This document shows, one piece after another, positions 1 to 12,144 of a stretch of 30,092 nucleotides of DNA. The notes beneath the pieces are model-generated. The model made no database searches, was not told the origin of the DNA, and saw nothing but the letters and a program-made list of their open reading frames with translations. The stretch is from assembly GCA_018304175.1 (NCBI GenBank), contig JAGVWT010000017.1:1-30092 (forward strand), given 5' to 3'. The stretch is from Candidatus Pacearchaeota archaeon. GTDB taxonomy: Archaea > Nanobdellota > Nanobdellia > Pacearchaeales > GW2011-AR1. Positions within the stretch are counted from its first letter, which is position 1. Each line of letters begins with the position of its first letter. The position numbers were made by a program, and so were the translations under genes.

Positions 1-1175
1 ACACAAATATTATGACAAAGAACCTTCAAAAGCAGTTCATTAATTTGTGCTGTCTTATCCTTACTTCTAAGATTATCTCGGAATTTTGTCTTCAACATAT
101 GGAAGCAAGTTTCAGCGTTGCTTCTCTTATGGTAATGCTCAAGAAATTCATCGTGTTTGTAAATAAAGTAATGATACATCTTTTTCCAGATTCCATATCC
201 TGACCTCTTTCCTCTAACATTTTTCTTAAAGGGAATGAAGGGGACAGCACCTACATCCTCAATCGCTTGTAAGTTCTTACGAGAACTATAAGCCTTGTCT
301 CCACTTACTTCGCCCACCTTGAAAGTCTTAGCTGTCTCCTCAACTAAGCGAGGCAATGAAGGACTATCGTTCACCTCTCCTTCAGTAATTTCACATCCAG
401 TAATGATATTAGTTTTTGTTCCACTAATTAAATGTGCTTTTAACCATACTCTATATGTTTTTTCTTTGCCCCATTTGTAATCAAAGTAACGGGCAAAACG
501 AGATGTAGAAAAACCACTGGAATCTATCGCAAAATCTGTTTCAACTTCTCTTAATGGGCTTGAACTTATTGAGATTAATTTTTTAAGAATATCTGTAATC
601 TCTCCCCTCTGCATAAAGTGTCCTACAGAAGCGTAGCAAGGTATAGAATCAATTAAATTCATTTCTTTGACTATCTTCATATCAGACATAAATCTTCTCA
701 AACTGAAAGTAGAATAAACCTTTAAGGCAGAAGCAAAAATCATTTTAGATAATGGTAGTGTTGGTCTTCCAAATTTATAATTAGGTTGTTCTGTAAAATC
801 ACATAATTCTCTAAGCAATTTTAGGAATACTAATTTTTCATTGGTCTGGGAATTATCATAAGCCTTCCAATCTTGGCTATAACTTATCTTAACTCCTTTA
901 GTTTGTGTTAATTTTCCTTCTTGGTCTATTTCTTGTTTGATATAGAACTCAACAGCGTAAATATGCTTACATTTCTTATGTCTTAATTCACAATCAGGAC
1001 AGGTGCATTTAGGATTATCTTTTATGAATCTAACCATATATTGTCTTGAAGTGTTCGTTTGTGAAGTAACTCTCCAACCGAAAGGAGTTTTGACTATCCT
1101 TGTAGATTTAGCCAAGAGCTTTCCTCTCTCTTCTCTTGAAAGCTTTTTCCAGTTTGTCTTTAATATCTGTTCCAT
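1..1175 (-). mobile_element. SWIM zinc finger + DDE transposase (IS4/IS5-like, DDE_Tnp_1 type); 3' end runs off the window edge
   Basis: Not in the ORF track because it has no stop in the window. My minus-strand translation from ATG 1175 gives MEQILKTNWKKLSREERGK...KCTCPDCELRHKKCKHIYAV (SWIM CxC..CxH), FAIDSSGFS (D), SGDKAYSS (D) and YHKRSNAETCFHMLK (Y-2-R-3-E-6-K signature). The frame is open to base 1. Confidence 0.88.
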
Positions 1176-3224: not shown

Positions 3225-6200
3225 TCAAAGATTCCTTTCATATTCTAAAATATTCGCAACATACTGCAAAACTTCAGGAGGGATATTTTTGCAATTTACC
3301 CATTTATCTTCTGCACAATTATCATTAATATTTCCCCTTCCCCAATTGTAAGCAGCAAGCGCAATTTTTTTCACTTCATCAGAATTGCCTTTACTAAAAT
3401 AATAATTATACAGAAGCGTGTAATAAAGCGTTCCAGCGTAAATATTTTTCTTCGCGTCAGACATTTCTGTTTCAAAGCTATTCAGATTTATAGACACTAT
3501 CACAGGTTCAACACCATAAACACTGTTTTTCACGTCGGTTACTGCACCCCTACTTACCTGCATTAATCCCCACGAACCCAAATTATCAGTAATACCTGCC
3601 GAAGGATTTTGCGCGTTTGACTCCTGCAAGATTATTCCTTTAATCAACTCATCAGGGATATAATACTTCAAAGAAACTTCACTAACAATGGAATCATAAC
3701 TTTCAAGATTCTTCATCACTAAAACACTATTTAATATATTTTGAACTCTATCTTCAGGTAAAGGTAATGAAACATCTCCTTCAATACATGTTCCACCAAA
3801 AATTCCCCCTAAAGCTCCAGGAGTATACAAACAACTATCGCTAATACTTCCACAATCATCTTTATAACATGCATAACCTCCGTCTCCACAGCTTTCACAT
3901 TTTATTTGTTCAATTTGTTCAATTTCACTAATTTCTATTTCATCCGGCGCTTCTATTAAATCTGTAACTGAAACAGGAGAAACTCCTGGAAAGGGTTTTT
4001 TTGCAATTATGTCTTTAACAATCTGTGCATGAGCATCTCCTCTAAAAAGATATAGCTGAGCTTTCTGATTTGATAAAATTGCTCTCTCAATTAAATTCTT
4101 TCCAGAAACAATATTATTTATTCTCTGTATAATTTCGCGCGCTTTTATTTGCACTAAACTCATCAAATCTCCGATATCTTTTATTTCCTTGTCAACATTT
4201 TCTGTTTCTGCAATTATTTTATCAGAAGCTTCAGCCCTTTCAGTTATTGAATCAAGAGTTTCATCCTCGAGATTCACAACTTTAATAGTATCTTTAACAC
4301 TCTGTGTATCAATGTAACATTTCACTCTTCCTTCTCCATTGTCACACGTTCCAACTTCCTGCCACCTTCCATCTTTTGTTCCTGTTAATGAATCTGTGTT
4401 TTTCCCGGGATTATCTGTCGCACAAACTCTTATAATCCCCCTATTGTAAATTTCAGGATTCAATGCTTCTTCAGCTCCTGCTTGCAAGTTAGGATTAATC
4501 AAACCTAAAGCGCTCGGCGTTCCAGCAACACACTCTGTTTCAGTCATTATATCTGTCCTGCTCGCTTCTTCTTCCAAGTATTTATCTTTCAGATAATTCA
4601 AAGAGAAATCAGTTGAGACTTGTTTGAAACCACATTCCTCCTGCGCATTAACTCTTACACATAATTCTTTGTATCCTTCCGGAGCAATAAAGTCCCTTGT
4701 CTCTGATGCGTAACCTCCTGGAGCAATATACCCTGAAGCAACATTCACCGTCGGATTTGTCTGATAAAATGAAACTCCACTAGGACTTCTCAAATAAATA
4801 TTGTAATAAACTCCAATATTGTCTATTTGCCCTGTGTTTTCTCCGGCGAAAATATGATAAAACACTTTGTACTGTGATGTTGCTGGAACCGTCGCTGTTG
4901 TATAAGTCTGCTCTGAAAACCACGCTGTGAACTGAGGCGGTGACCTTGGTTCAATTAAAGAACTCAAACCAACATCTGTGGGGTAAGTTGCTGAAATAAA
5001 ATTCCTGCATATTGCGCTTCCAATTTGATTCGTGGATTGAACATTAAATGCCTGGAATGCATTGTTCCCATAATAACTAGTGAAATAATTTGCAGAGTCT
5101 TGTGCATTTTGCCACGCACTTTGAATTGCTAAATACTCTCCACCCCCTCTTTTTCCTGAACTTAATGAACCTGTAGTTAAAAATTCAAAAATTTTCGGAA
5201 CTGCTATCTGAGATATTGGTTGTGCCTGATCCCAGAAAAAGTCGCAAAGATAAATACTATGAATCTCATCACAAATTCCAATTGTCTTTCCTGTATCTAA
5301 ATTAGTTTGCAAGCAATCCCTGTAGCTTTTCTGAACTGAAATCAAAGAATCAATTCCTGCTTTTATTCCAGTAAGACAAACAGGAACATAAATATTTTCT
5401 TCTATATTCGGCAAACATAACAAAGCACTTCCAACAATTCCACTTTGGACAACATCAGCGACGTAATAATTTCCCCCAAGGTTACATCTACTTGAAGGAC
5501 ATACAACAGGGTCGCAAACATTGAATAATAAATTACATTCACTAGGTGACATGAAATCCTGGCATTGAACTTCAGGAACTCCTACTGCCGGCTCGCCAAC
5601 AGGAACATCCTCTGTACCTATTCTTATAACCCCACTTATTCCCGGCCTATAAGCACTAGCTACACTATTTATTGCTCTCGTTGCTTTATCAACCAAGCTT
5701 CTTACTTCTCTAGGATCATCTATTCCTGCAAAACTGTAAGATACAGTTCCTGTTGCCGGATTAAATTGCTGGCATTCATCATCGCCCAAATTCGGAGAAT
5801 TAAATTCAGCTTTTCCATTAAATCCTACATTGCAAAGATAAAAACTTCCAACATTTCCAGAATCATCATAAGTCCTAATTCCTCCAAAACCTGGGAATGT
5901 TTGCTTTGTCACTGCATACCATCCGTTTTGTAAGTCAAATGGAACCAAAGCAGGTAAGCCCTTGTATTGCCCTGTTTCAAAATACTGAACCTTTGGATCT
6001 AAGAAATTGTTGTTGTAAGATGAAGAATCTCTTTTTATGAATCCCGAGGAAAATTCTTGCCTGACTTGAGTAATAATATTTTCATCAGTAATTTTATTCC
6101 CACTAATGTCATAAACTGCTGTTCCGTCATCATCAATTGCATATTTATTGCTTCCTAAATCTCTTAAAGCAACATAATAAGACATTTGAGTACTCCTCAA

Positions 6201-9200
6201 AGTTATTCCTTGAATTTTCTTTCCTGAATTAATATCTCCAAAACCAGAAGTGCTTTTTCCTTGATAAGTTGTTGGAGGTCTTGTATCTTGAGTTGGGCCT
6301 GAAAATGGAAAACTCATTCCTGGCAAACCATTTTGTGATGCAGAAGCTTGTGCAACTCTCTGTGCAACAATTCCTTCAACATTTGAATTTATATTTGACA
6401 AAATTTTATACCTCTCAATTTCAGCAGATGTTTTTATTTCAGCACTTATATCATTTGACTCTGCGATTAAATTCAATCTTTCCAAATCTCGTGCCTGAGT
6501 TAAAGAAACCATATCACATTTTCCTTCATTATCTGTACCAAATGCAGCATTCAAATCATCTGAAAAAGTTACATCCTGGCTTGTAATTTCATTTCTCGGG
6601 TCTACGATTTGATTTCCTAAACCTTGCCTTATATCTCCAAGTCTTCCACACAAGTTACCTTCATTAATCGCTTCCTGAGACTGAATTATTTCATGAACAG
6701 CTTCGACATCTTTGTCAATTGCTTCGGTATTGTCTAAGAAACACGCGTCCAATGAACTGTATTCGCCGGCAGTTGTTTTTTTGTCGCAAATATCTGTCCA
6801 ACCTCCCTCGCTTCTCATAACTTCCTGTCGTGAAATAGATTTCCCGTCGAGGTTTTCAAAAAAGTTCTTAACAGTTAAAGCAGTTCCTGTAGCAAGACAC
6901 ATTCCATTAAATCCTTTCACAACATTTCCCAAAGCTTCGGAGTTGCCTTCCCACTTGTTTATTGAATCATTCAAGTTGTTTATCTTGTTCTTTATTTCAC
7001 TAGGAGACAATTGAATTGCTCTTTTTTCAATTCCAATCTTGAAACTCAAATTCGCTTCTGTGCCTGCGTTCTCAACTCCAGGAATCACAGAAACTTTTGC
7101 CTGTTTTTCCAAATTTATGTCAGTCAAAGTGAAAGTATATTTGCTTCCGAAACTATCGCCAACATCTTCTCTTAGTGTTTTTCTAGGATTTCCAAAAGCA
7201 GCAACCAAAGTGCTGTCTATAAAACTGTCTGACCTCAAATTAAAATTCAAGACAGCTGAATTATCATTAAGAGATAAAAGCTGTATAGTCTCGCCGGTTT
7301 CTTCATTTAATACATATACTTCATTTTTAGTCAGCTTAATTGGAATAAAATCATTATTAGGATATCTTATTGAAATCTCTGCTCCAAATTCTTCAGAACT
7401 TGGTTCATAAATTCCGTCAAAAGAAATTTCACGAATTTTACCGTTGATTATTACATCCTGTCGGGCAATTTCAGAGCTTGCAATCTTTAATGCATTTTCA
7501 CATATATCAGGATAAATACTTGTATCTGGATAACTATCCCTAAATTCTTTACATAATTCAACCATTGTTTTTTTCTGATTTGTTTTTTCAGCAAGAATTA
7601 TTGAGTTGACAAATGCCTGTTCTGCAAATGTAGGTGTGTTTTCTATTTTATCGCCGGGCTTGTCGCTCGGATAATTGTCGATTATTTCTCTGTAATCAGA
7701 CATTGCATTTTCGTAAGTTTGTTCTAATTCATCGCGTCCAGATATTGTTTCATCGCTCGGCCTAAGAGTTTCGAGATAATTCTCGAATGAAATATAATCA
7801 TCTTCTCCAGAAAACTTTATCCTAATTGAATCCCTGTTTTGGTTTCTGGTAAAAAGATCTTTTACTTGAGCATCGGTGTAAGATGTACCAATATTCCATG
7901 TCCACTCATTGTTTCCAACTTTCTCACGATTAACTTCATTGTCAAAACTACCAGCTAAAATAGTATCTCCTATCCCACACCTCGACGGCTCAAATCCTCC
8001 ATTTACAACACAGCGTCCGTTTAATCTTTCATCAACGCCAAAAATATTTCTGTTGTTTGTTGCTTCTGACAATCCGTCGAAAAAGACTGTTTTGCCTTTC
8101 ATCTCATAACCATGCCCTTGAGGAATTATAGCATAAATTTCTCCTTTCCCAAAAAATCCATAAGCCTGCCTTGCCAATGAAATATAAGATTCAAACAAAT
8201 CAAGAGAGAAATCAATAACCCCTATGCTTGTCTTCTCATCGCGAATCATCTGCTTGTATAGTGTCTCTGATTTTGAAATTTCATCATTATCTAATCTTTC
8301 CTTGTCTTGAGTTGATGTCTTTAAAAAAACAACCAAATCCAAATCCCCTTCATCATTTGAATATTTTTTCGCTTCAGCATATGCAAAATAAACAAACTTT
8401 CCTTCTGACTCGTAAAGTTTATCACCAATTTGGTAATCTCCTTGATTTTCGTCTATGCTCAATGTAAGTTCAGGGGAATTTATCAATGAAAAAGTTCCAT
8501 CACTTCCAGGGTCTGTTCTGCAATTAACATCAACTCTCTCAAACAATCCATTTTTTTCAATGTCTGTAACCCTACACAAATTCTCAAGGAATCTTTCTCT
8601 TTCCCCAACTTCAACAATCTCTCCGTTAATACTAAGCTTTGCTCTTGTATTTGGAACTGTCAAACTATCAAGTCTCAACCTCAAATTAGCAGCACAATAA
8701 TACCCTGGAAGATAAATTTGATTTGAAGTCTCTCCAACTCTTAACGTTTGCGTTGTTAATCTGTTATTTTCATCAAGATAAATTGAAATCACAGCGCTGT
8801 TATCTTCAACATCTTCGGCTCTTAGAAGTGCTTTTCCATTCCAGAAGCCATATTGTCTAAACTTATTACTCCATTCATCATTATCTATTAAAGGCAAATA
8901 TCTCGTCGCAGGACCAATTCCGTAAGCATTTTCAATGTCATATCTGATAAACGCTGTTAAATTTCCTTGAACAAAATTAGGCATCGCTGACTCATTCGGC
9001 TGTTGATTCAAAACAATAACTGCATAACCAACATTTTCCAGAGTCGGTGAATTGATTAAAGTTGAATAAGTTCTTTTCACAGCAGCCCTCGCAGGATAAA
9101 ATCCAACTCCAGAAACTCCCGGAGAATATTCTCCTCGAAAAGTCATAGATTCAATAGCTTCAACATCAATTAATGGATTTATTTTTGTTGCAAGAACAGG

Positions 9201-9488
9201 ACAGAAAACAGGTACGTTTCTTTCTTCAAGCAAATCGCTTCTCACAACCGCAGGAGAACAGCCAAATGGCGCGATTTGTAAAATAAAATCCTGGCTTTTG
9301 CCACACATCTGGGCATTAAAACCGGAAATACCACTAATTCCCTGAATTCCACTTAATCCAGGAGAAAATCCAGGGGAAGTATATTGTGGATTCGAATAAA
9401 TTGACTGCGCGGAAATAAAACAAATCAAAAATAAAATTGCAAATAAAGAAATTATTGCAAAAGTCAAATCTTTGTTTTTTGTTATCAT
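3225..9488 (-). CDS. Giant (2087 aa) secreted or membrane-anchored Cys-rich protein with C-terminal lytic transglycosylase (SLT-like) domain
   Basis: N-terminal signal-like hydrophobic segment; Cys clusters (e.g. VQCQDFMSPSECNLLFNVCDPVVCPSSRC); C-terminal IILQES (catalytic Glu codon 3621-3623), GLMQ (3558-3569) and ALAAYNWG (about 3339-3362) motifs. Confidence 0.88.
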   Translation of the reverse strand: MITKNKDLTFAIISLFAILFLICFISAQSIYSNPQYTSPGFSPGLSGIQGISGISGFNAQMCGKSQDFILQIAPFGCSPAVVRSDLLEERNVPVFCPVLATKINPLIDVEAIESMTFRGEYSPGVSGVGFYPARAAVKRTYSTLINSPTLENVGYAVIVLNQQPNESAMPNFVQGNLTAFIRYDIENAYGIGPATRYLPLIDNDEWSNKFRQYGFWNGKALLRAEDVEDNSAVISIYLDENNRLTTQTLRVGETSNQIYLPGYYCAANLRLRLDSLTVPNTRAKLSINGEIVEVGERERFLENLCRVTDIEKNGLFERVDVNCRTDPGSDGTFSLINSPELTLSIDENQGDYQIGDKLYESEGKFVYFAYAEAKKYSNDEGDLDLVVFLKTSTQDKERLDNDEISKSETLYKQMIRDEKTSIGVIDFSLDLFESYISLARQAYGFFGKGEIYAIIPQGHGYEMKGKTVFFDGLSEATNNRNIFGVDERLNGRCVVNGGFEPSRCGIGDTILAGSFDNEVNREKVGNNEWTWNIGTSYTDAQVKDLFTRNQNRDSIRIKFSGEDDYISFENYLETLRPSDETISGRDELEQTYENAMSDYREIIDNYPSDKPGDKIENTPTFAEQAFVNSIILAEKTNQKKTMVELCKEFRDSYPDTSIYPDICENALKIASSEIARQDVIINGKIREISFDGIYEPSSEEFGAEISIRYPNNDFIPIKLTKNEVYVLNEETGETIQLLSLNDNSAVLNFNLRSDSFIDSTLVAAFGNPRKTLREDVGDSFGSKYTFTLTDINLEKQAKVSVIPGVENAGTEANLSFKIGIEKRAIQLSPSEIKNKINNLNDSINKWEGNSEALGNVVKGFNGMCLATGTALTVKNFFENLDGKSISRQEVMRSEGGWTDICDKKTTAGEYSSLDACFLDNTEAIDKDVEAVHEIIQSQEAINEGNLCGRLGDIRQGLGNQIVDPRNEITSQDVTFSDDLNAAFGTDNEGKCDMVSLTQARDLERLNLIAESNDISAEIKTSAEIERYKILSNINSNVEGIVAQRVAQASASQNGLPGMSFPFSGPTQDTRPPTTYQGKSTSGFGDINSGKKIQGITLRSTQMSYYVALRDLGSNKYAIDDDGTAVYDISGNKITDENIITQVRQEFSSGFIKRDSSSYNNNFLDPKVQYFETGQYKGLPALVPFDLQNGWYAVTKQTFPGFGGIRTYDDSGNVGSFYLCNVGFNGKAEFNSPNLGDDECQQFNPATGTVSYSFAGIDDPREVRSLVDKATRAINSVASAYRPGISGVIRIGTEDVPVGEPAVGVPEVQCQDFMSPSECNLLFNVCDPVVCPSSRCNLGGNYYVADVVQSGIVGSALLCLPNIEENIYVPVCLTGIKAGIDSLISVQKSYRDCLQTNLDTGKTIGICDEIHSIYLCDFFWDQAQPISQIAVPKIFEFLTTGSLSSGKRGGGEYLAIQSAWQNAQDSANYFTSYYGNNAFQAFNVQSTNQIGSAICRNFISATYPTDVGLSSLIEPRSPPQFTAWFSEQTYTTATVPATSQYKVFYHIFAGENTGQIDNIGVYYNIYLRSPSGVSFYQTNPTVNVASGYIAPGGYASETRDFIAPEGYKELCVRVNAQEECGFKQVSTDFSLNYLKDKYLEEEASRTDIMTETECVAGTPSALGLINPNLQAGAEEALNPEIYNRGIIRVCATDNPGKNTDSLTGTKDGRWQEVGTCDNGEGRVKCYIDTQSVKDTIKVVNLEDETLDSITERAEASDKIIAETENVDKEIKDIGDLMSLVQIKAREIIQRINNIVSGKNLIERAILSNQKAQLYLFRGDAHAQIVKDIIAKKPFPGVSPVSVTDLIEAPDEIEISEIEQIEQIKCESCGDGGYACYKDDCGSISDSCLYTPGALGGIFGGTCIEGDVSLPLPEDRVQNILNSVLVMKNLESYDSIVSEVSLKYYIPDELIKGIILQESNAQNPSAGITDNLGSWGLMQVSRGAVTDVKNSVYGVEPVIVSINLNSFETEMSDAKKNIYAGTLYYTLLYNYYFSKGNSDEVKKIALAAYNWGRGNINDNCAEDKWVNCKNIPPEVLQYVANILEYERNL

Positions 9489-11380
9489 CTGAAATTTATA
9501 TTCAAACTTTTTTCGTCAAGTAAAATATAATTTTGCTGAAGCTGCTCAATTGTGTTTGGAGTTGGGAATGATTGAACATTTATTTCAATAACATTTGAAC
9601 TAGAAAGCTGAGATTCCAAAATATAATATCCTTGCTTTCCCCCTCCAGCTAATGCATTCGAAACAACTTGTGCAGGGAATTCAACTGTATAGCAGTTTTC
9701 TTTCGTAAATCCGAAAAATCCCCCTATCCCTGTCTGCAGAACTTCAACACATTGTTCGCTTTTAGTTTCTCCTAAACGCAAAGAGGAATTCCTGAATGCA
9801 AAAACCTGAACTTCATAATCACCTTCGCTTAATTTTATTTTTTTCTGTTCTGGATAAATAATTGTCTGTATGTAATCATCAGAAACAAAACTAACTGTTG
9901 CTTGACCATTGTAATTAACTCCGTCGAGAGTTAATTCAACATTCAATTCGTAAAGTTTGTCAATAACTACATCAACAATTCCCTGTTCAACAGTTGAAAA
10001 TTGATGTCTTGCATTTTTGTAACCTTCTGCCTTGACTATTACATCCCCATTTATACATTGTGGGAAATCAGATTTCAAGATTCCACTCGTTGCTTGACCG
10101 ATAGAACATTTTGTTCCAAAACACTCATAAGAAATTTCGGCATTATTAACTAAATTGAGCTTTGTGTCATAAACATTCACAGTTATTTCTGTATTTTTTT
10201 GTTCACACAATTCAGGAATTTCAAAATCAACAGCCTCTGAATCAAGCAGAGGTTCTCTAGGATTATTTCCCTGAATTACAACTGCAAAAGGAAACTGGAA
10301 TAATTCTTCTCCCTCAGATATTTGAACTAAAACGGGATATTTCACATCATAAACAAAATGATATGGTGTATAGCAAAATCCAAGGATTCCTAGTCCAAGT
10401 TGATTCGCTCCAGCAGGATTTGCAACCAAGATATTATTCTCTGAGGGATTTACTTCGTAAGCATAGCTCCAGGATTTTGAATTCAAAAACCTCACATCAC
10501 CTTCCACAGAAATGTCATTCACAAAATATTTATCTTCTTCATCATTCAATGTGAATTCATTACCAGATATTTTTATTGCCTGAGTGTTTGCCTCAATTGC
10601 GTTTTGCAATTCAGAGAAAACTTCATTAGTTTTCCAGACTAATGGACTGCATGTAAGTTCAACACCGTCGACAGGAGAATAAAGTCTTAATGTATCAACA
10701 GCATATCTTTCCAAGAAAAGGGTCTCCTGTTCGTGGTCATAAATTTCTCGCGCAGAATCATACAAAGTTCCTAATTTTGAATTCATAGAAATATCATGAT
10801 TGCTTATTAATACACTATCATTTCCTCTTTCAATGCTCAAATCCATGTCCAAGTCAATATTAATATTATTTTTGTTTATTTTTACAGTTGATTTTGGTTC
10901 TCCCATAGAAATTTCAAATCCTTCTTCATAATAGCTTTCAAGTTCGCAGTCCCTTATCCTTTCATCGACAAATACCTCTAATTGAGACTCCACATCATTC
11001 AAAGAAGGAACTTGCTCTTTCTGCAAACCATTACCAGAAACATAGTACCAATAAGGAATTGGATTTCCTAAAAAATCCAGTTGATTCGAAAACGGCATGT
11101 ATGTGCTTCCGGGTTGAAATTCAGGAAGTTCAATATACCCTGCTTGACTTCCAAGAACTCCTGCTCCTGTTAATACATCATCTCCCAAACACTCTGTAAA
11201 AGAAACATAAACTGGTTCAATGCTTGCAGGAATTGTTGAAAAAACAAAAAAATTTCTTGCTACAAAAAACAAAACCACTGCTGCCAATATAATAACTGCA
11301 ACTAGTATAAAAATTGTAAGCTGTCCGCGTCTTTGTTTTCCCAACGAGAAAATACCATCATCACCTCTCGGATTCATCAA
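9485..11380 (-). CDS. 631-aa surface protein with class III signal/pilin-like N-terminus (RRGQ + hydrophobic helix)
   Basis: KQRRGQLTIFILVAVIILAAVVLFFV followed by a Cys-containing beta-rich body; the stop overlaps the start of the giant gene (4-nt ATGA overlap at 9485-9488). Confidence 0.75.
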   Translation of the reverse strand: MMNPRGDDGIFSLGKQRRGQLTIFILVAVIILAAVVLFFVARNFFVFSTIPASIEPVYVSFTECLGDDVLTGAGVLGSQAGYIELPEFQPGSTYMPFSNQLDFLGNPIPYWYYVSGNGLQKEQVPSLNDVESQLEVFVDERIRDCELESYYEEGFEISMGEPKSTVKINKNNINIDLDMDLSIERGNDSVLISNHDISMNSKLGTLYDSAREIYDHEQETLFLERYAVDTLRLYSPVDGVELTCSPLVWKTNEVFSELQNAIEANTQAIKISGNEFTLNDEEDKYFVNDISVEGDVRFLNSKSWSYAYEVNPSENNILVANPAGANQLGLGILGFCYTPYHFVYDVKYPVLVQISEGEELFQFPFAVVIQGNNPREPLLDSEAVDFEIPELCEQKNTEITVNVYDTKLNLVNNAEISYECFGTKCSIGQATSGILKSDFPQCINGDVIVKAEGYKNARHQFSTVEQGIVDVVIDKLYELNVELTLDGVNYNGQATVSFVSDDYIQTIIYPEQKKIKLSEGDYEVQVFAFRNSSLRLGETKSEQCVEVLQTGIGGFFGFTKENCYTVEFPAQVVSNALAGGGKQGYYILESQLSSSNVIEINVQSFPTPNTIEQLQQNYILLDEKSLNINFR

Positions 11381-11417
11381 AAAAAGATGGAAATTATATA
11401 TAAAAATCTATCTGACC

Positions 11418-11882
11418 TTATATGGGATATATTCTTTTACCAGTCATTTTAACCCACTTTGTTAAGAAATTGATATGTCCAATCTTATTTTTACACAATC
11501 TTAATTGCCTTTTAACTTCTTTAAGTACATCCGCAGTTTCTAACCTGTAAATTTCTTCAACTGTAAGATGGTCTTCAAAAAAAGCGAAATAAAACCCACT
11601 ATTTCTAATAATTCTTTTTAAGTTACTTTTTGTTAATCTATCAATCTGAAAGCTACTTCCTTTATTAGTTTTCACATTTTTTCTATTAATACTTGATAAA
11701 TATTCATAATAATGATTCTGATTGTCCCTTGCATCAGGCAAATTCTTTTGAGGTATTAAAGTGTGTCCTAAAATTTCGGCAATAATTAATTCTTTTATTA
11801 CTCCAGGTTGTAAGATATTATTAATGCCAATACTTGTGGCCAATTTTTGAGCTTTTTTTAATAAGTTTATAATTTCCGACAT
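11418..11882 (-). CDS. PvuII-like restriction endonuclease fold protein (orphan; catalytic Lys position is Leu)
   Basis: By-eye similarity along the whole length to PvuII as I recall it: GINNILQ ~ GINDIFQ; PDARDNQNHYYEYLSSIN ~ NDAVDNAGQEYELKSIN; EEIYRLETAD ~ EAIYRLEPKD; GKRIY ~ GTKIY; similar length (154 aa). Confidence 0.72.
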   Translation of the reverse strand: MSEIINLLKKAQKLATSIGINNILQPGVIKELIIAEILGHTLIPQKNLPDARDNQNHYYEYLSSINRKNVKTNKGSSFQIDRLTKSNLKRIIRNSGFYFAFFEDHLTVEEIYRLETADVLKEVKRQLRLCKNKIGHINFLTKWVKMTGKRIYPI

Positions 11883-11931: not shown

Positions 11932-12144
11932 TTATTCATTAACGGCTAAAATTTTCTTATTTCTGCCGCCGATTAAAAAATGTTCAAACCCACTTAGTAT
12001 AATTAGTGCTCCCCCAATAAGCATTATCCAAGAGTCTAAATCTGAAATGAATTCTGGAATTTCAACAAAATTAAGTGATACGTTAATAAAATAAAAACCG
12101 AACAGAACATAAATCAAAAACAGGAAAATTTTCCATCTCATCAA
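11932..12144 (-). CDS. Small membrane protein (2 TM), 70 aa
   Basis: Two hydrophobic helices; TATTTAAATA box about 20 nt upstream. Confidence 0.72.
   Translation of the reverse strand: MMRWKIFLFLIYVLFGFYFINVSLNFVEIPEFISDLDSWIMLIGGALIILSGFEHFLIGGRNKKILAVNE

What the first reader, a model, noticed from the sequence alone, without database searches (positions are those of the whole stretch)
3225..11380. Candidate bacterial cell-wall attack apparatus: giant Cys-rich secreted protein with lytic transglycosylase, coupled to a pilin-like protein
Seen: a 2087-aa exported protein ending in QES, GLMQ and AAYNWG motifs, preceded by a small Cys-rich module, translationally coupled (ATGA overlap) to a 631-aa RRGQ-hydrophobic protein. 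Known: these three motifs define the SLT/goose-lysozyme-like lytic transglycosylase active site acting on peptidoglycan, which archaea do not make; such domains have been noted in DPANN genomes. Inferred: a large disulfide-stabilised surface stalk or complex carries a muralytic tip for attachment to, or feeding on, a bacterial host or prey. About 1900 residues of scaffold match no family I recognise.
Basis: partly seen in the sequence, partly recalled or inferred. Interest (0 to 1): 0.85.

Follow-up and report, generated by a model that had tools for sequence, protein, structure and literature searches.

The report
Pacearchaeal giant wall-cutting surface protein pair
A tiny-genome DPANN archaeon encodes a pilin-signal protein coupled to a secreted 2087-residue protein ending in an enzyme domain that cuts bacterial cell wall; the giant family is already published, so this is an ordinary member of it.

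Summary
Window 3225-9488 (-) encodes a 2087-aa Sec-signal protein. Its C-terminus is an SLT lytic transglycosylase domain (Pfam 38 bits, cut-off 21.3) with the ES, GLMQ and AYNWG motifs intact. It overlaps by ATGA a 630-aa protein with a class-III (prepilin-type) signal.

The organism is a Pacearchaeota-type DPANN archaeon (544 kb). No Mur ligase was found in it, so the substrate must be foreign.

The giant family is already published: fam00969 of Castelle et al. [quoted passage not shown] This scan has also met the module repeatedly on other DNA (75 notes, at least 69 genomes).

What I add:
- The partner lies directly upstream in 22 of 24 sampled genomes that carry the scaffold.
- The body (residues 50-400 and 600-1830) is conserved, but the tail after about 1835 is swapped at one orthologous locus. 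Heads seen include SLT, M10, VanY, amidases, M23 and OmpA; more than half have no recognised domain.
- SLT presence is almost randomly scattered on the scaffold tree.
- Both proteins avoid N-glycosylation sequons.
- Distant relatives carry the same anchor-plus-giant pairing but no wall hydrolase.
- The scaffold model has no recognisable solved-structure relative.

Best reading: a 1:1 surface complex that presents an exchangeable head, here an intact-looking wall-cutting domain, to bacteria. Verdict: new member of a known kind, moderate interest.

The parts
3225..9488 (-). Giant secreted protein P0001 (2087 aa), a member of the published fam00969-type family
   Evidence: ORF and translation. 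At least 774 homologues of 1150-3650 aa, several named Pacearchaeota or Nanoarchaeota. It holds the only SLT match in the 544-kb genome.
9408..9488 (-). Sec-type signal peptide, residues 1-27 (predicted cut ISA|QS)
   Evidence: It is the only hydrophobic segment at TM level in the protein (Kyte-Doolittle 2.77). The cleavage site is read from the sequence (inference).
8289..9341 (-). Conserved N-terminal scaffold block, residues 50-400
   Evidence: Aligned in 87-99% of 120 homologues. No Pfam family. Not modelled here.
7689..8141 (-). Variable insert, residues about 450-600
   Evidence: BLAST coverage falls to 10-46% of homologues. Insert length varies by up to about 550 aa.
3999..7688 (-). Conserved scaffold body, residues 601-1830
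   Evidence: Aligned in 98-100% of homologues up to residue 1800. AF2 model m6bea192cc655 has mean pLDDT 70 and shows beta-sandwiches, long helical hairpins and a terminal coiled coil. Foldseek found no PDB match at E<=0.001. VIA found only generic coiled-coil matches, Z about 8. A profile found no PDB sequence relative.
5244..5564 (-). Invariant Cys-rich core, residues 1309-1415 (QCQDF...NVCDPVVCPSSRC...CLPN...DCLQ...C...C)
   Evidence: Ten Cys, all invariant in 52 sequences. The CLPxI...CLQ...G...C...C part recurs in the 1000-1680-aa partner giants of distant genomes. The family HMM aligns the same region in four of them, with E 2.5e-7 and 0.002 for the best two and E 0.5-1.8 for the others; the fifth was aligned by eye.
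3786..3899 (-). Small six-Cys module, residues 1864-1901, after an acidic linker
   Evidence: Sequence. A similar module is seen in some relatives; 29 of 120 tails have a window with at least 6 Cys.
3288..3680 (-). SLT / GH23-type lytic transglycosylase domain, residues 1937-2067
   Evidence: Pfam PF01464, 38.3 bits against a cut-off of 21.3; same span in the genome search. Also matches MltC NCBIfam, MltC PDB chains, and PHROG endolysin and lytic tail protein families in this region only.
3621..3623 (-). Codon of the predicted catalytic glutamate E1956 (QES)
   Evidence: Aligns with the TES motif of MltC. That motif holds MltC's catalytic Glu (my own knowledge). Glu is kept in 34 of 35 SLT-bearing family members.
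9485..11377 (-). Partner protein P0002 (630 aa from ATG 11377; stop overlaps the giant's start)
   Evidence: At least 1416 homologues at 55-67% identity, no Pfam family. Found in 122 of 151 genomes sampled across the phylum.
11249..11377 (-). Class-III (prepilin-type) signal, QRRGQ|LTIF, and N-terminal hydrophobic helix (residues 1-43)
   Evidence: The motif is kept across the homologue N-termini examined. AF2 places a helix at residues 16-43. It is the single hydrophobic segment. A Peptidase_A24 gene and a pilin-like gene with the same RRGQ motif lie on contig C2.
9488..10201 (-). Beta-sandwich domains of P0002, residues about 393-630
   Evidence: Model m597f86ecc8e3. Residues 393-476 match transthyretin-like / carboxypeptidase-regulatory / CnaB-type domains (VIA Z 10-12, rmsd about 2 A over about 80 residues), including SlaB of the Sulfolobus S-layer. 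The strand-rich part continues to residue 630.
11394..11406 (-). TATA-like box (TTTTTATATATAA) about 23 nt upstream of the P0002 ATG
   Evidence: Read from the sequence. Promoter function is inferred.
11932..12141 (-). Small 2-TM protein gene (69 aa, FGxYFIN motif), third conserved member of the array
   Evidence: 30-35% identical to the gene directly upstream of the P0002 orthologue in G031, G106 and L002. Genes of 71-73 aa lie at a similar upstream position in L018 and L019; their sequences were not compared.
11418..11882 (-). PvuII-like gene P0003, inserted between the 2-TM gene and P0002; not part of the conserved module
   Evidence: Pfam Endonuc-PvuII 26.8 bits, cut-off 25. No ORF of comparable size lies at this position in G031, G106, L002, L018 or L019.

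Best explanation
This is the Pacearchaeota version of a conserved surface module of two genes plus a small 2-TM gene.

P0002 is exported and probably cut by the genome's prepilin peptidase. That would leave an N-terminal hydrophobic helix, which holds it in the membrane or in a pilus-like fibre, with transthyretin-like beta-sandwich domains at its C-terminal end.

P0001 is made in equal amounts through the ATGA start/stop overlap and exported by Sec. It has no anchor of its own, so it most likely docks on P0002 as a disulfide-rich, unglycosylated 1:1 complex.

The conserved body (residues 50-1830) is a presentation scaffold. After a terminal coiled coil and an acidic linker comes an exchangeable head. 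In this genome the head is a six-Cys knot plus a family-1-type lytic transglycosylase with catalytic Glu E1956. That enzyme type cleaves the MurNAc-GlcNAc bond of peptidoglycan. The archaeon makes no peptidoglycan, so the target is a bacterium it touches.

Shown here: domain identities, export signals, gene coupling, conserved synteny, head exchange, conserved catalytic residues.
Inferred: physical complex, surface retention, contact-dependent action on a bacterial partner or prey.
For: - SLT over the Pfam cut-off with all three motifs.
- Catalytic Glu kept in 34 of 35 SLT-bearing relatives, which argues for activity rather than mere binding.
- No Mur ligase in the genome.
- One Sec signal and no other TM segment in P0001; a single N-terminal helix in P0002.
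- Peptidase_A24, two T2SSE ATPases and an RRGQ pilin-like gene in the genome.
- ATGA overlap here. A 4-nt overlap in two other members, and directly abutting genes in a third.
- Partner directly upstream on the same strand in 22 of 24 genomes with the scaffold.
- Same orthologous locus (S3Ae ... TFIIB) with SLT, VanY or M10 heads.
- Alternative heads, several from families that act on or bind peptidoglycan, lie in the C-terminal tail.
- Sequon depletion in both families (observed/expected 0.31 and 0.38, against 0.80 genome-wide) with AglB present, as expected for co-evolving extracellular proteins.
- Published proposals for the same family (PMC8204110, PMC9723730).
Against: - No direct evidence for a P0001-P0002 complex, for surface retention or for any bacterial partner.
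- About two thirds of close homologues have no recognisable SLT and more than half have no recognised domain at all.
- Distantly related anchor-plus-giant modules carry only Ig-like domains, so wall attack cannot be the scaffold's ancestral job.
- The SLT tail was not modelled, so the lysozyme-like fold rests on sequence only.
- Both AF2 models are of moderate confidence (pLDDT 70-72, pTM 0.44-0.47).
Confidence: 0.55

Rival explanations
1. The pair is a core envelope or cell-surface structure of Pacearchaeales. Its main role (adhesion, envelope architecture, contact with any partner) has nothing to do with peptidoglycan. The SLT is an accessory add-on used for occasional competition or defence against bacteria.
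For: - Single copy in 23 of 24 other sampled genomes that have it, at a housekeeping locus.
- The body and the partner are far more conserved than the head.
- Most members lack a recognised wall enzyme.
- Distant modules have none.
- SlaB-like beta-sandwich domains in the partner.
Against: - The recognisable heads include several that act on or bind peptidoglycan (SLT, amidases, M23, VanY, OmpA), and the catalytic Glu is under selection.
- Sequon depletion contrasts with the S-layer-like 914-aa candidate on contig C6, which has 13 sequons against 11.5 expected, so this is not the usual glycosylated S-layer.
Confidence: 0.25
2. P0002 is a minor-pilin-like subunit at the tip of a type IV pilus-like fibre and P0001 is its tip-associated giant. 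This would be analogous to the minor pilins plus PilY1 of bacterial type IV pili. The wall-cutting head would then be carried away from the cell surface rather than sit on the membrane.
For: - The class-III signal shares its RRGQ motif with a 164-aa pilin-like gene next to the prepilin peptidase and an ATPase on contig C2.
- A 256-aa paralogue of the P0002 N-domain heads a row of class-III-signal genes on contig C6.
- P0001 has a Sec signal and no anchor, as PilY1 does (my own knowledge of PilY1).
Against: No fibre evidence exists. No sequence or fold link to PilY1 or to minor pilins was found. The module is not adjacent to the pilus machinery.
Confidence: 0.2
3. P0001 is released as a soluble polymorphic bacteriolysin (bacteriocin-like). 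The conserved body serves for secretion or target binding, and P0002 only assists export.
For: - Conserved body with a variable C-terminal module, as in polymorphic toxins.
- No anchor in P0001.
- Archaeal secreted peptidoglycan hydrolases that kill bacteria are documented (PMC12352652).
Against: - An 1800-residue conserved body and a strictly coupled membrane partner are costly for a diffusible enzyme in a 544-kb genome.
- No downstream immunity-like gene: tRNA-Leu and tfb follow.
- Many heads are not recognisable enzymes.
Confidence: 0.12
4. The locus is a prophage or mobile-element remnant and the giant is a virion-associated wall hydrolase (tape-measure or tail-fibre-like).
For: The PHROG endolysin and lytic tail protein matches cover the SLT region only. 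One weak BFVD hit to a phage tail fibre has TM-score 0.05. A tRNA gene and a transposase lie in the window.
Against: - The same housekeeping neighbours (FtsY, PGM, GINS51, S3Ae, L44e, TFIIB) flank it in distant relatives.
- One copy per genome.
- No phage structural families in the body, the partner or the 2-TM gene.
- Composition is unremarkable.
Confidence: 0.02

Closest known systems
[quoted passage not shown] 2021, PMC8204110; earlier Castelle 2015; 'large lytic murein transglycosylase' of Vigneron et al. 2022, PMC9723730)
   Same: Very large (up to 3000 aa) exported proteins of small-genome Pacearchaeota/Woesearchaeota with an SLT domain, proposed to bind or degrade bacterial walls. P0001's homologues are named Pacearchaeota or Nanoarchaeota SLT-domain proteins.
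   Different: The passages I searched in those papers by keyword define the family by the SLT domain. Here the SLT is one of many exchangeable heads on a conserved body. In those passages I also found no mention of the coupled class-III-signal partner, the small 2-TM gene or the fixed housekeeping locus. I did not read the papers in full.
Family-1 lytic transglycosylases (Slt70 / MltC type, Pfam PF01464, CAZy GH23)
   Same: ES, GLMQ and AYNxG motifs and the domain length. phmmer aligns residues 1926-2069 to the MltC catalytic domain.
   Different: Fused to an archaeal 1900-residue body. This SLT subtype is lineage-specific. Among 1.84 billion representatives only 26 score E<=1e-10. Most of these are long proteins matched at their C-terminus, and the short ones I looked up lie on short contigs, three of them named partial or SLT-like proteins of Nanoarchaeota or Pacearchaeota. 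No close stand-alone small SLT was found.
Bacterial polymorphic toxin systems (Rhs, CdiA, MafB types)
   Same: Conserved delivery or presentation body with a rapidly exchanged C-terminal effector at one locus. SLT presence needs 26 changes on a 120-tip scaffold tree, against 32 for shuffled labels.
   Different: No sequence relation. No immunity gene downstream; for wall-directed heads none would be needed, since the archaeon has no peptidoglycan. No T5, T6 or T7 secretion system; export is by Sec with a pilin-signal partner.
Two-component archaeal S-layer SlaA/SlaB of Sulfolobales
   Same: Adjacent genes for a large secreted protein and a smaller membrane-anchored protein with tandem beta-sandwich domains. 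SlaB (8qox_B) is among the structural matches of P0002.
   Different: The similarity is confined to a generic 80-residue beta-sandwich. P0002 is anchored at its N-terminus by a prepilin-type helix, whereas SlaB is anchored at its C-terminus (my own knowledge). Both proteins here avoid N-glycosylation sequons. A separate S-layer-like 914-aa candidate exists on contig C6.
Type IV pilus tip complexes (minor pilins plus PilY1) and archaeal class-III-signal surface proteins
   Same: Prepilin-type signal on the partner, a Sec-exported unanchored large protein, and a prepilin peptidase and pilus ATPases in the genome.
   Different: No homology was detected, and no evidence of a fibre. At 630 aa and 1:1 coupling, the partner is unlike a major pilin.

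Membership tests
SLT / GH23 family-1 lytic transglycosylase (PF01464) | Profile match above the curated threshold | tested here: met
   38.3 bits against a cut-off of 21.3, residues 1937-2067; 44.3 bits in the genome search.
SLT / GH23 family-1 lytic transglycosylase (PF01464) | Catalytic Glu in the E-S motif, plus the GLMQ and AYNxG motifs | tested here: met
   E1956-S, GLMQ at 1974 and AAYNWG at 2045 align with TES / GLMQ / AYNGG of MltC. Glu is kept in 34 of 35 relatives with SLT.
SLT / GH23 family-1 lytic transglycosylase (PF01464) | Lysozyme-like alpha-helical fold | not tested
Support is by sequence only.
SLT / GH23 family-1 lytic transglycosylase (PF01464) | Cleaves MurNAc-GlcNAc and forms 1,6-anhydroMurNAc | not testable with these tools
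   Needs an enzyme assay on sacculi.
fam00969-type DPANN giant SLT proteins (Castelle 2021) | Very large exported protein with an SLT domain in Pacearchaeota or Woesearchaeota | tested here: met
   2087 aa with a signal peptide and an SLT domain. Homologues at 40-57% identity are named Pacearchaeota or Nanoarchaeota SLT-domain proteins. The genome is archaeal and 544 kb. The family's own sequences or HMM were not available for direct comparison.
Archaeal class-III-signal (type IV pilin-like) proteins, for P0002 | N-terminal [KR]G|X motif followed by a hydrophobic stretch of about 20 residues | tested here: met
   QRRGQ|LTIFILVAVIILAAVVLFF. Q19 and F23 are invariant in 65 sequences, and the [KR]GQ pattern holds across the N-termini printed. 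The FlaFind-type pattern is recalled from memory.
Archaeal class-III-signal (type IV pilin-like) proteins, for P0002 | A cognate prepilin peptidase in the genome | tested here: met
   Peptidase_A24 at G000:C2:9722-10042, 45-48 bits.
Archaeal class-III-signal (type IV pilin-like) proteins, for P0002 | Pilin architecture (alpha-1 helix packed on a small beta-sheet head) and assembly into a filament | tested here: inconclusive
   The model has the long N-terminal helix (16-43), followed by a 330-residue alpha/beta domain with no match and then beta-sandwich domains. Polymerisation is not testable. The 630-aa size and 1:1 coupling argue against a major pilin.
Polymorphic toxin systems | Conserved body with a variable C-terminal module at one locus | tested here: met
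   Coverage falls from 0.99 to 0.16 across residues 1800-1850. Tails are 18-1846 aa with different Pfam domains. The same locus carries SLT, VanY or M10 heads.
Polymorphic toxin systems | Cognate immunity gene immediately downstream | tested here: not met
   tRNA-Leu and tfb follow the gene here. In relatives, tfb or small unannotated ORFs follow.
SlaA/SlaB-type S-layer pair | Heavily N-glycosylated lattice protein with a C-terminally anchored stalk partner | tested here: not met
   Sequons are depleted: 4 observed against 20.7 expected, family ratio 0.31. The partner's only hydrophobic segment is N-terminal. Lattice formation is not testable.

The most novel reading that the evidence does not exclude
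The pair would be one branch of an undescribed superfamily of 'prepilin-signal anchor plus Cys-core giant' modules, spread across Pacearchaeales and Woesearchaeales-type archaea and sometimes found in tandem. On this reading it forms an archaeal contact-dependent display system. In the Pacearchaeota branch the heads have become a recombining arsenal against bacterial envelopes, an archaeal counterpart of polymorphic toxin systems aimed across domains. It would also be direct genomic evidence that these DPANN archaea use bacteria as hosts or prey.
Probability: 0.3. Interest if true: 0.75.

Novelty: new member of a known kind. Interest (0 to 1): 0.4.

Why it matters
Whether Pacearchaeota and Woesearchaeota live on bacteria rather than on other archaea is an open question. 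All cultivated DPANN archaea have archaeal hosts (PMC11291902). This module is the main genomic argument for bacterial partners.

This window shows an intact, typical copy. The family-wide picture points to experiments: a fixed anchor partner, heads exchanged in place, conserved catalytic residues and avoidance of glycosylation. Obvious ones are activity of the isolated head, localisation of the pair, and use of head type to predict the target's wall chemistry. The gene family itself is already in the literature, so the gain is in mechanism and context rather than discovery.

Tried and rejected
- Scaffold fold. Foldseek against the PDB gave no match at E<=0.001; BFVD gave one at 5.7e-4 with TM-score 0.05. 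VIA-wide returned only generic helical hairpins at Z about 8. The ESM Atlas gave no usable hit.
- PDB profile searches with alignments A1 and A2 gave only low-complexity noise.
- The word-index search with the 188-aa SLT tail for small stand-alone relatives found nothing at E<=1e-5.
- Single-linkage clustering of tails by BLAST merged nearly everything and was uninformative. I used an SLT HMM and the precomputed Pfam columns instead.
- Pfam on four long 'no-domain' tails gave nothing above threshold.
- Feeding on anhydromuropeptides: AnmK and LdcA were not found in the 88%-complete genome.
- Action on the archaeon's own wall: no Mur-type ligase was found.
- Prophage reading: rejected on the conserved housekeeping synteny and the absence of phage families outside the SLT region.
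- S-layer reading: weakened by sequon depletion and by a separate S-layer-like candidate on contig C6.

Full report
**Organism and setting.** The window is archaeal. It encodes TFIIB, GINS51, ribosomal proteins L44e, S3Ae and S15/S13, eIF2-alpha, SRP54 and FtsY, at about 34% G+C. It lies in a 544-kb assembly that is 88% complete. Homologues of the two genes are named Pacearchaeota or Nanoarchaeota archaeon by their sources. This is a small-genome DPANN archaeon.

**Observation.** The ORF at 3225-9488 (-) gives 2087 aa. It starts with a Sec-type signal peptide, which is the only hydrophobic segment at TM level. Pfam places an SLT domain at residues 1937-2067 (38.3 bits, cut-off 21.3). This is the only SLT match in the genome. 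phmmer aligns residues 1926-2069 to the catalytic domain of MltC, pairing QES (E1956), GLMQ and AAYNWG with MltC's TES, GLMQ and AYNGG. A six-Cys module (1864-1901) precedes the domain. There are 42 Cys outside the signal peptide.

The upstream ORF ends in TGA inside the ATGA that starts the giant. Its N-terminus, QRRGQ-LTIFILVAVIILAAVVLFF, is a prepilin-type (class III) signal. The pattern holds across the homologue N-termini printed, and Q19 and F23 are invariant in 65 sequences. By comparison with those homologues the true start is ATG 11377, giving 630 aa. A TATA-like box lies about 23 nt upstream.

**What is already known.** Castelle et al. [quoted passage not shown] It is widespread in Pacearchaeota and Woesearchaeota. 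They propose it as extracellular enzymes for attachment to bacterial walls. Vigneron et al. 2022 (PMC9723730) report a 'large lytic murein transglycosylase' in Woesearchaeota and argue for predation. The 2024 ISME J paper PMC11537232 repeats the idea for Pacearchaeota. Strock et al. 2025 (PMC12352652) show experimentally that other archaeal peptidoglycan hydrolases kill bacteria. The kind is therefore published. Earlier notes of this scan show the same module was met repeatedly on other DNA, with the same verdict. I reached my reading before seeing them.

**Family anatomy.** At least 774 homologues of 1150-3650 aa exist.
- BLAST coverage over the best 120 shows two conserved blocks, residues 50-400 and 600-1830.
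- A variable insert lies at about 450-600.
- Coverage collapses from 0.99 to 0.16 between residues 1800 and 1850.
- Tails beyond that point are 18 to 1846 aa long.

Precomputed Pfam columns and my own scans place different domains in the tails. These are SLT, matrixin M10 (1961-2119 of 2120), VanY (2595-2728 of 2776), OmpA (1851-1913 of 2436), DUF1615, Amidase_2, Amidase_3, M15_4, M23, polysaccharide deacetylase, GDSL, TPM and ankyrin. Combining an iterated SLT HMM at E<1e-8 with the Pfam columns labels 38 of 120 members, the window's protein included, as SLT-bearing. The loosest HMM threshold (E<=1e-3) reaches 52. Four long unlabelled tails gave nothing in Pfam.

On a FastTree of the Cys-core region (120 tips), SLT presence needs 26 changes, against a mean of 32 (range 25-37) for shuffled labels. 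The head is therefore exchanged almost freely. The caveats are that the tree carries no support values and that domain detection is incomplete.

Where SLT is present, the catalytic Glu is kept in 34 of 35 members and GLMQ is nearly invariant. Two subtypes differ in the third motif. This SLT subtype is specific to the lineage. Of 1.84 billion representatives, only 26 score E<=1e-10. Most of these are long proteins matched at their C-terminus. The short ones I looked up lie on short contigs, and three of them are named partial or SLT-like proteins of Nanoarchaeota or Pacearchaeota.

**The partner and the locus.** P0002 has at least 1416 homologues at 55-67% identity and no Pfam family. In a sample of 151 genomes of the phylum it is found in 122, often with paralogues. 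The giant's Cys-core (residues 1201-1750) is found in 25, with a single match in 23 of the 24 genomes other than this one. In 22 of those 24 genomes the strong P0002 orthologue lies directly upstream on the same strand. The two exceptions, G027 and G063, have the genes on different contigs.

Three fetched loci show the same order: S3Ae, L44e-sized gene, small genes, a partner of 611-625 aa, the giant, then TFIIB. Two have a 4-nt overlap between partner and giant and the third has them abutting. The heads are SLT, VanY and M10 respectively. The head is thus exchanged in place at an orthologous housekeeping locus, which excludes a mobile or viral origin.

A small 2-TM gene (69 aa, window 11932-12141) is homologous to the gene directly upstream of the partner in relatives. 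In this window a PvuII-like gene (11418-11882) is inserted between them, and no ORF of comparable size lies there in the relatives examined.

**Structure.** AF2 with 65 sequences gives P0002 a mean pLDDT of 72. The model has a long N-terminal helix (16-43), an alpha/beta domain without a match, and C-terminal beta-sandwich domains. Residues 393-476 match transthyretin-like, carboxypeptidase-regulatory and CnaB domains of pilins, adhesins and SlaB (Z 10-12, rmsd about 2 A).

AF2 of P0001 residues 601-1800 (52 sequences, pLDDT 70) shows beta-sandwiches, long helical hairpins, a helical Cys-core and a terminal coiled coil. Foldseek found no PDB match at E<=0.001. VIA found only generic coiled-coil matches. 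PDB profile searches were empty. The body has no recognisable relative, but residues 30-600 and the tail were not modelled.

**Context in the genome.**
- A prepilin peptidase, two T2SSE ATPases and a 164-aa gene with the same RRGQ motif are present.
- A row of class-III-signal genes on contig C6 is headed by a 256-aa paralogue of the P0002 N-domain.
- No Mur ligase, AnmK or LdcA was found. The wall substrate is therefore foreign, and nothing supports use of anhydromuropeptides as food.
- AglB is present, yet both families avoid N-X-S/T sequons. P0001 has 4 against 20.7 expected. The family ratios are 0.31 and 0.38, against 0.80 for the genome's long ORFs.

The sequon pattern fits exposed extracellular proteins under a shared constraint. 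It argues against the usual glycosylated S-layer.

**Wider superfamily.** In more distant genomes of the same class (G004, G148, G035), P0002-like proteins of two paralogous types each precede a large Cys-containing secreted protein. The 690-760-aa type precedes a 1000-1065-aa protein. The 622-631-aa type precedes a 1673-1680-aa protein. In G004 and G148 the two modules lie in tandem.

All these large partners share a motif of about 60 residues with P0001 residues about 1358-1415 (CLPxI ... CLQ ... G ... C ... C). The family HMM aligns the same positions in four of them. E is 2.5e-7 and 0.002 for the best two and 0.5-1.8 for the others; the fifth, G004_1680, was aligned by eye. They carry only Ig-like Pfam domains and no wall hydrolase. 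The anchor-plus-giant pairing is therefore older and broader than the wall-cutting heads.

**Mechanism.** The best-supported reading is a 1:1 surface complex. P0002 would be processed by the prepilin peptidase and held by its N-terminal helix. P0001 would be exported by Sec and docked on it. An exchangeable head sits on a coiled coil and an acidic linker. Here the head is a lytic transglycosylase with intact catalytic motifs, which would open the glycan strands of a bacterium in contact.

Shown: domains, signals, coupling, synteny, head exchange, selection on the catalytic residues. Inferred: the complex, its location and the bacterial target.

The rivals are:
- a core surface structure with an accessory head;
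- a pilus-tip complex analogous to minor pilins plus PilY1;
- a released polymorphic bacteriolysin;
- a prophage remnant, which is rejected.

**Verdict.** This is a typical, intact member of a published family. In the passages of the papers I could search, the fixed partner, the in-place head exchange, the sequon avoidance and the wider paired-module superfamily are not described.

Noticed in passing
window 11418-11882 (-): A PvuII-like gene (Pfam 26.8 bits, cut-off 25; PHROG 28628) sits between the conserved small 2-TM gene and P0002. No ORF of comparable size lies at that position in G031, G106, L002, L018 or L019. It looks like an insertion into the conserved array.
   Followed up: partly
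window 3225-11377 and both protein families: N-glycosylation sequons are strongly depleted. P0001 has 4 against 20.7 expected. The family ratios are 0.31 and 0.38, against 0.80 for the genome's long ORFs, although AglB/STT3 is present (G000:C12:38690-41392). Other large secreted proteins of the genome (C10 1478 aa, C3 1333 aa) are depleted too. The 914-aa protein on C6 is not.
   Followed up: partly
G000:C6:6373-13697 (-) (locus L017): A row of seven genes, most with class-III-like or Sec signals. It is headed by a 256-aa paralogue of the P0002 N-domain and includes Cys-rich proteins of 512 and 709 aa. Next to it is a 914-aa protein with a signal-like N-terminus, 0.2% Cys and no sequon depletion, which is a candidate S-layer protein.
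   Followed up: partly
G000:C2:6-10540 (+) (locus L016): A type IV pilus-like operon: a T2SSE ATPase (736 aa), a 721-aa protein with only a weak DUF2207_C hit, several small ORFs, a 164-aa pilin-like gene with the same RRGQ motif as P0002, and a Peptidase_A24 prepilin peptidase.
   Followed up: partly
L007 (G004:C1:657001-676500) and L008 (G148:C4:503500-523000): Tandem paired modules in distant relatives: a 747-760-aa anchor-like gene followed by a 1009-1051-aa Cys protein, then genes of about 490-590 aa and about 250 aa, then a 622-631-aa anchor-like gene followed by a 1673-1680-aa giant. None has a wall-hydrolase domain.
   Followed up: partly
window 3-1175 (-): A SWIM plus DDE_Tnp_1 transposase at the window edge, about 2 kb from the end of the giant gene. 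It is not linked to the module in relatives.
   Followed up: no
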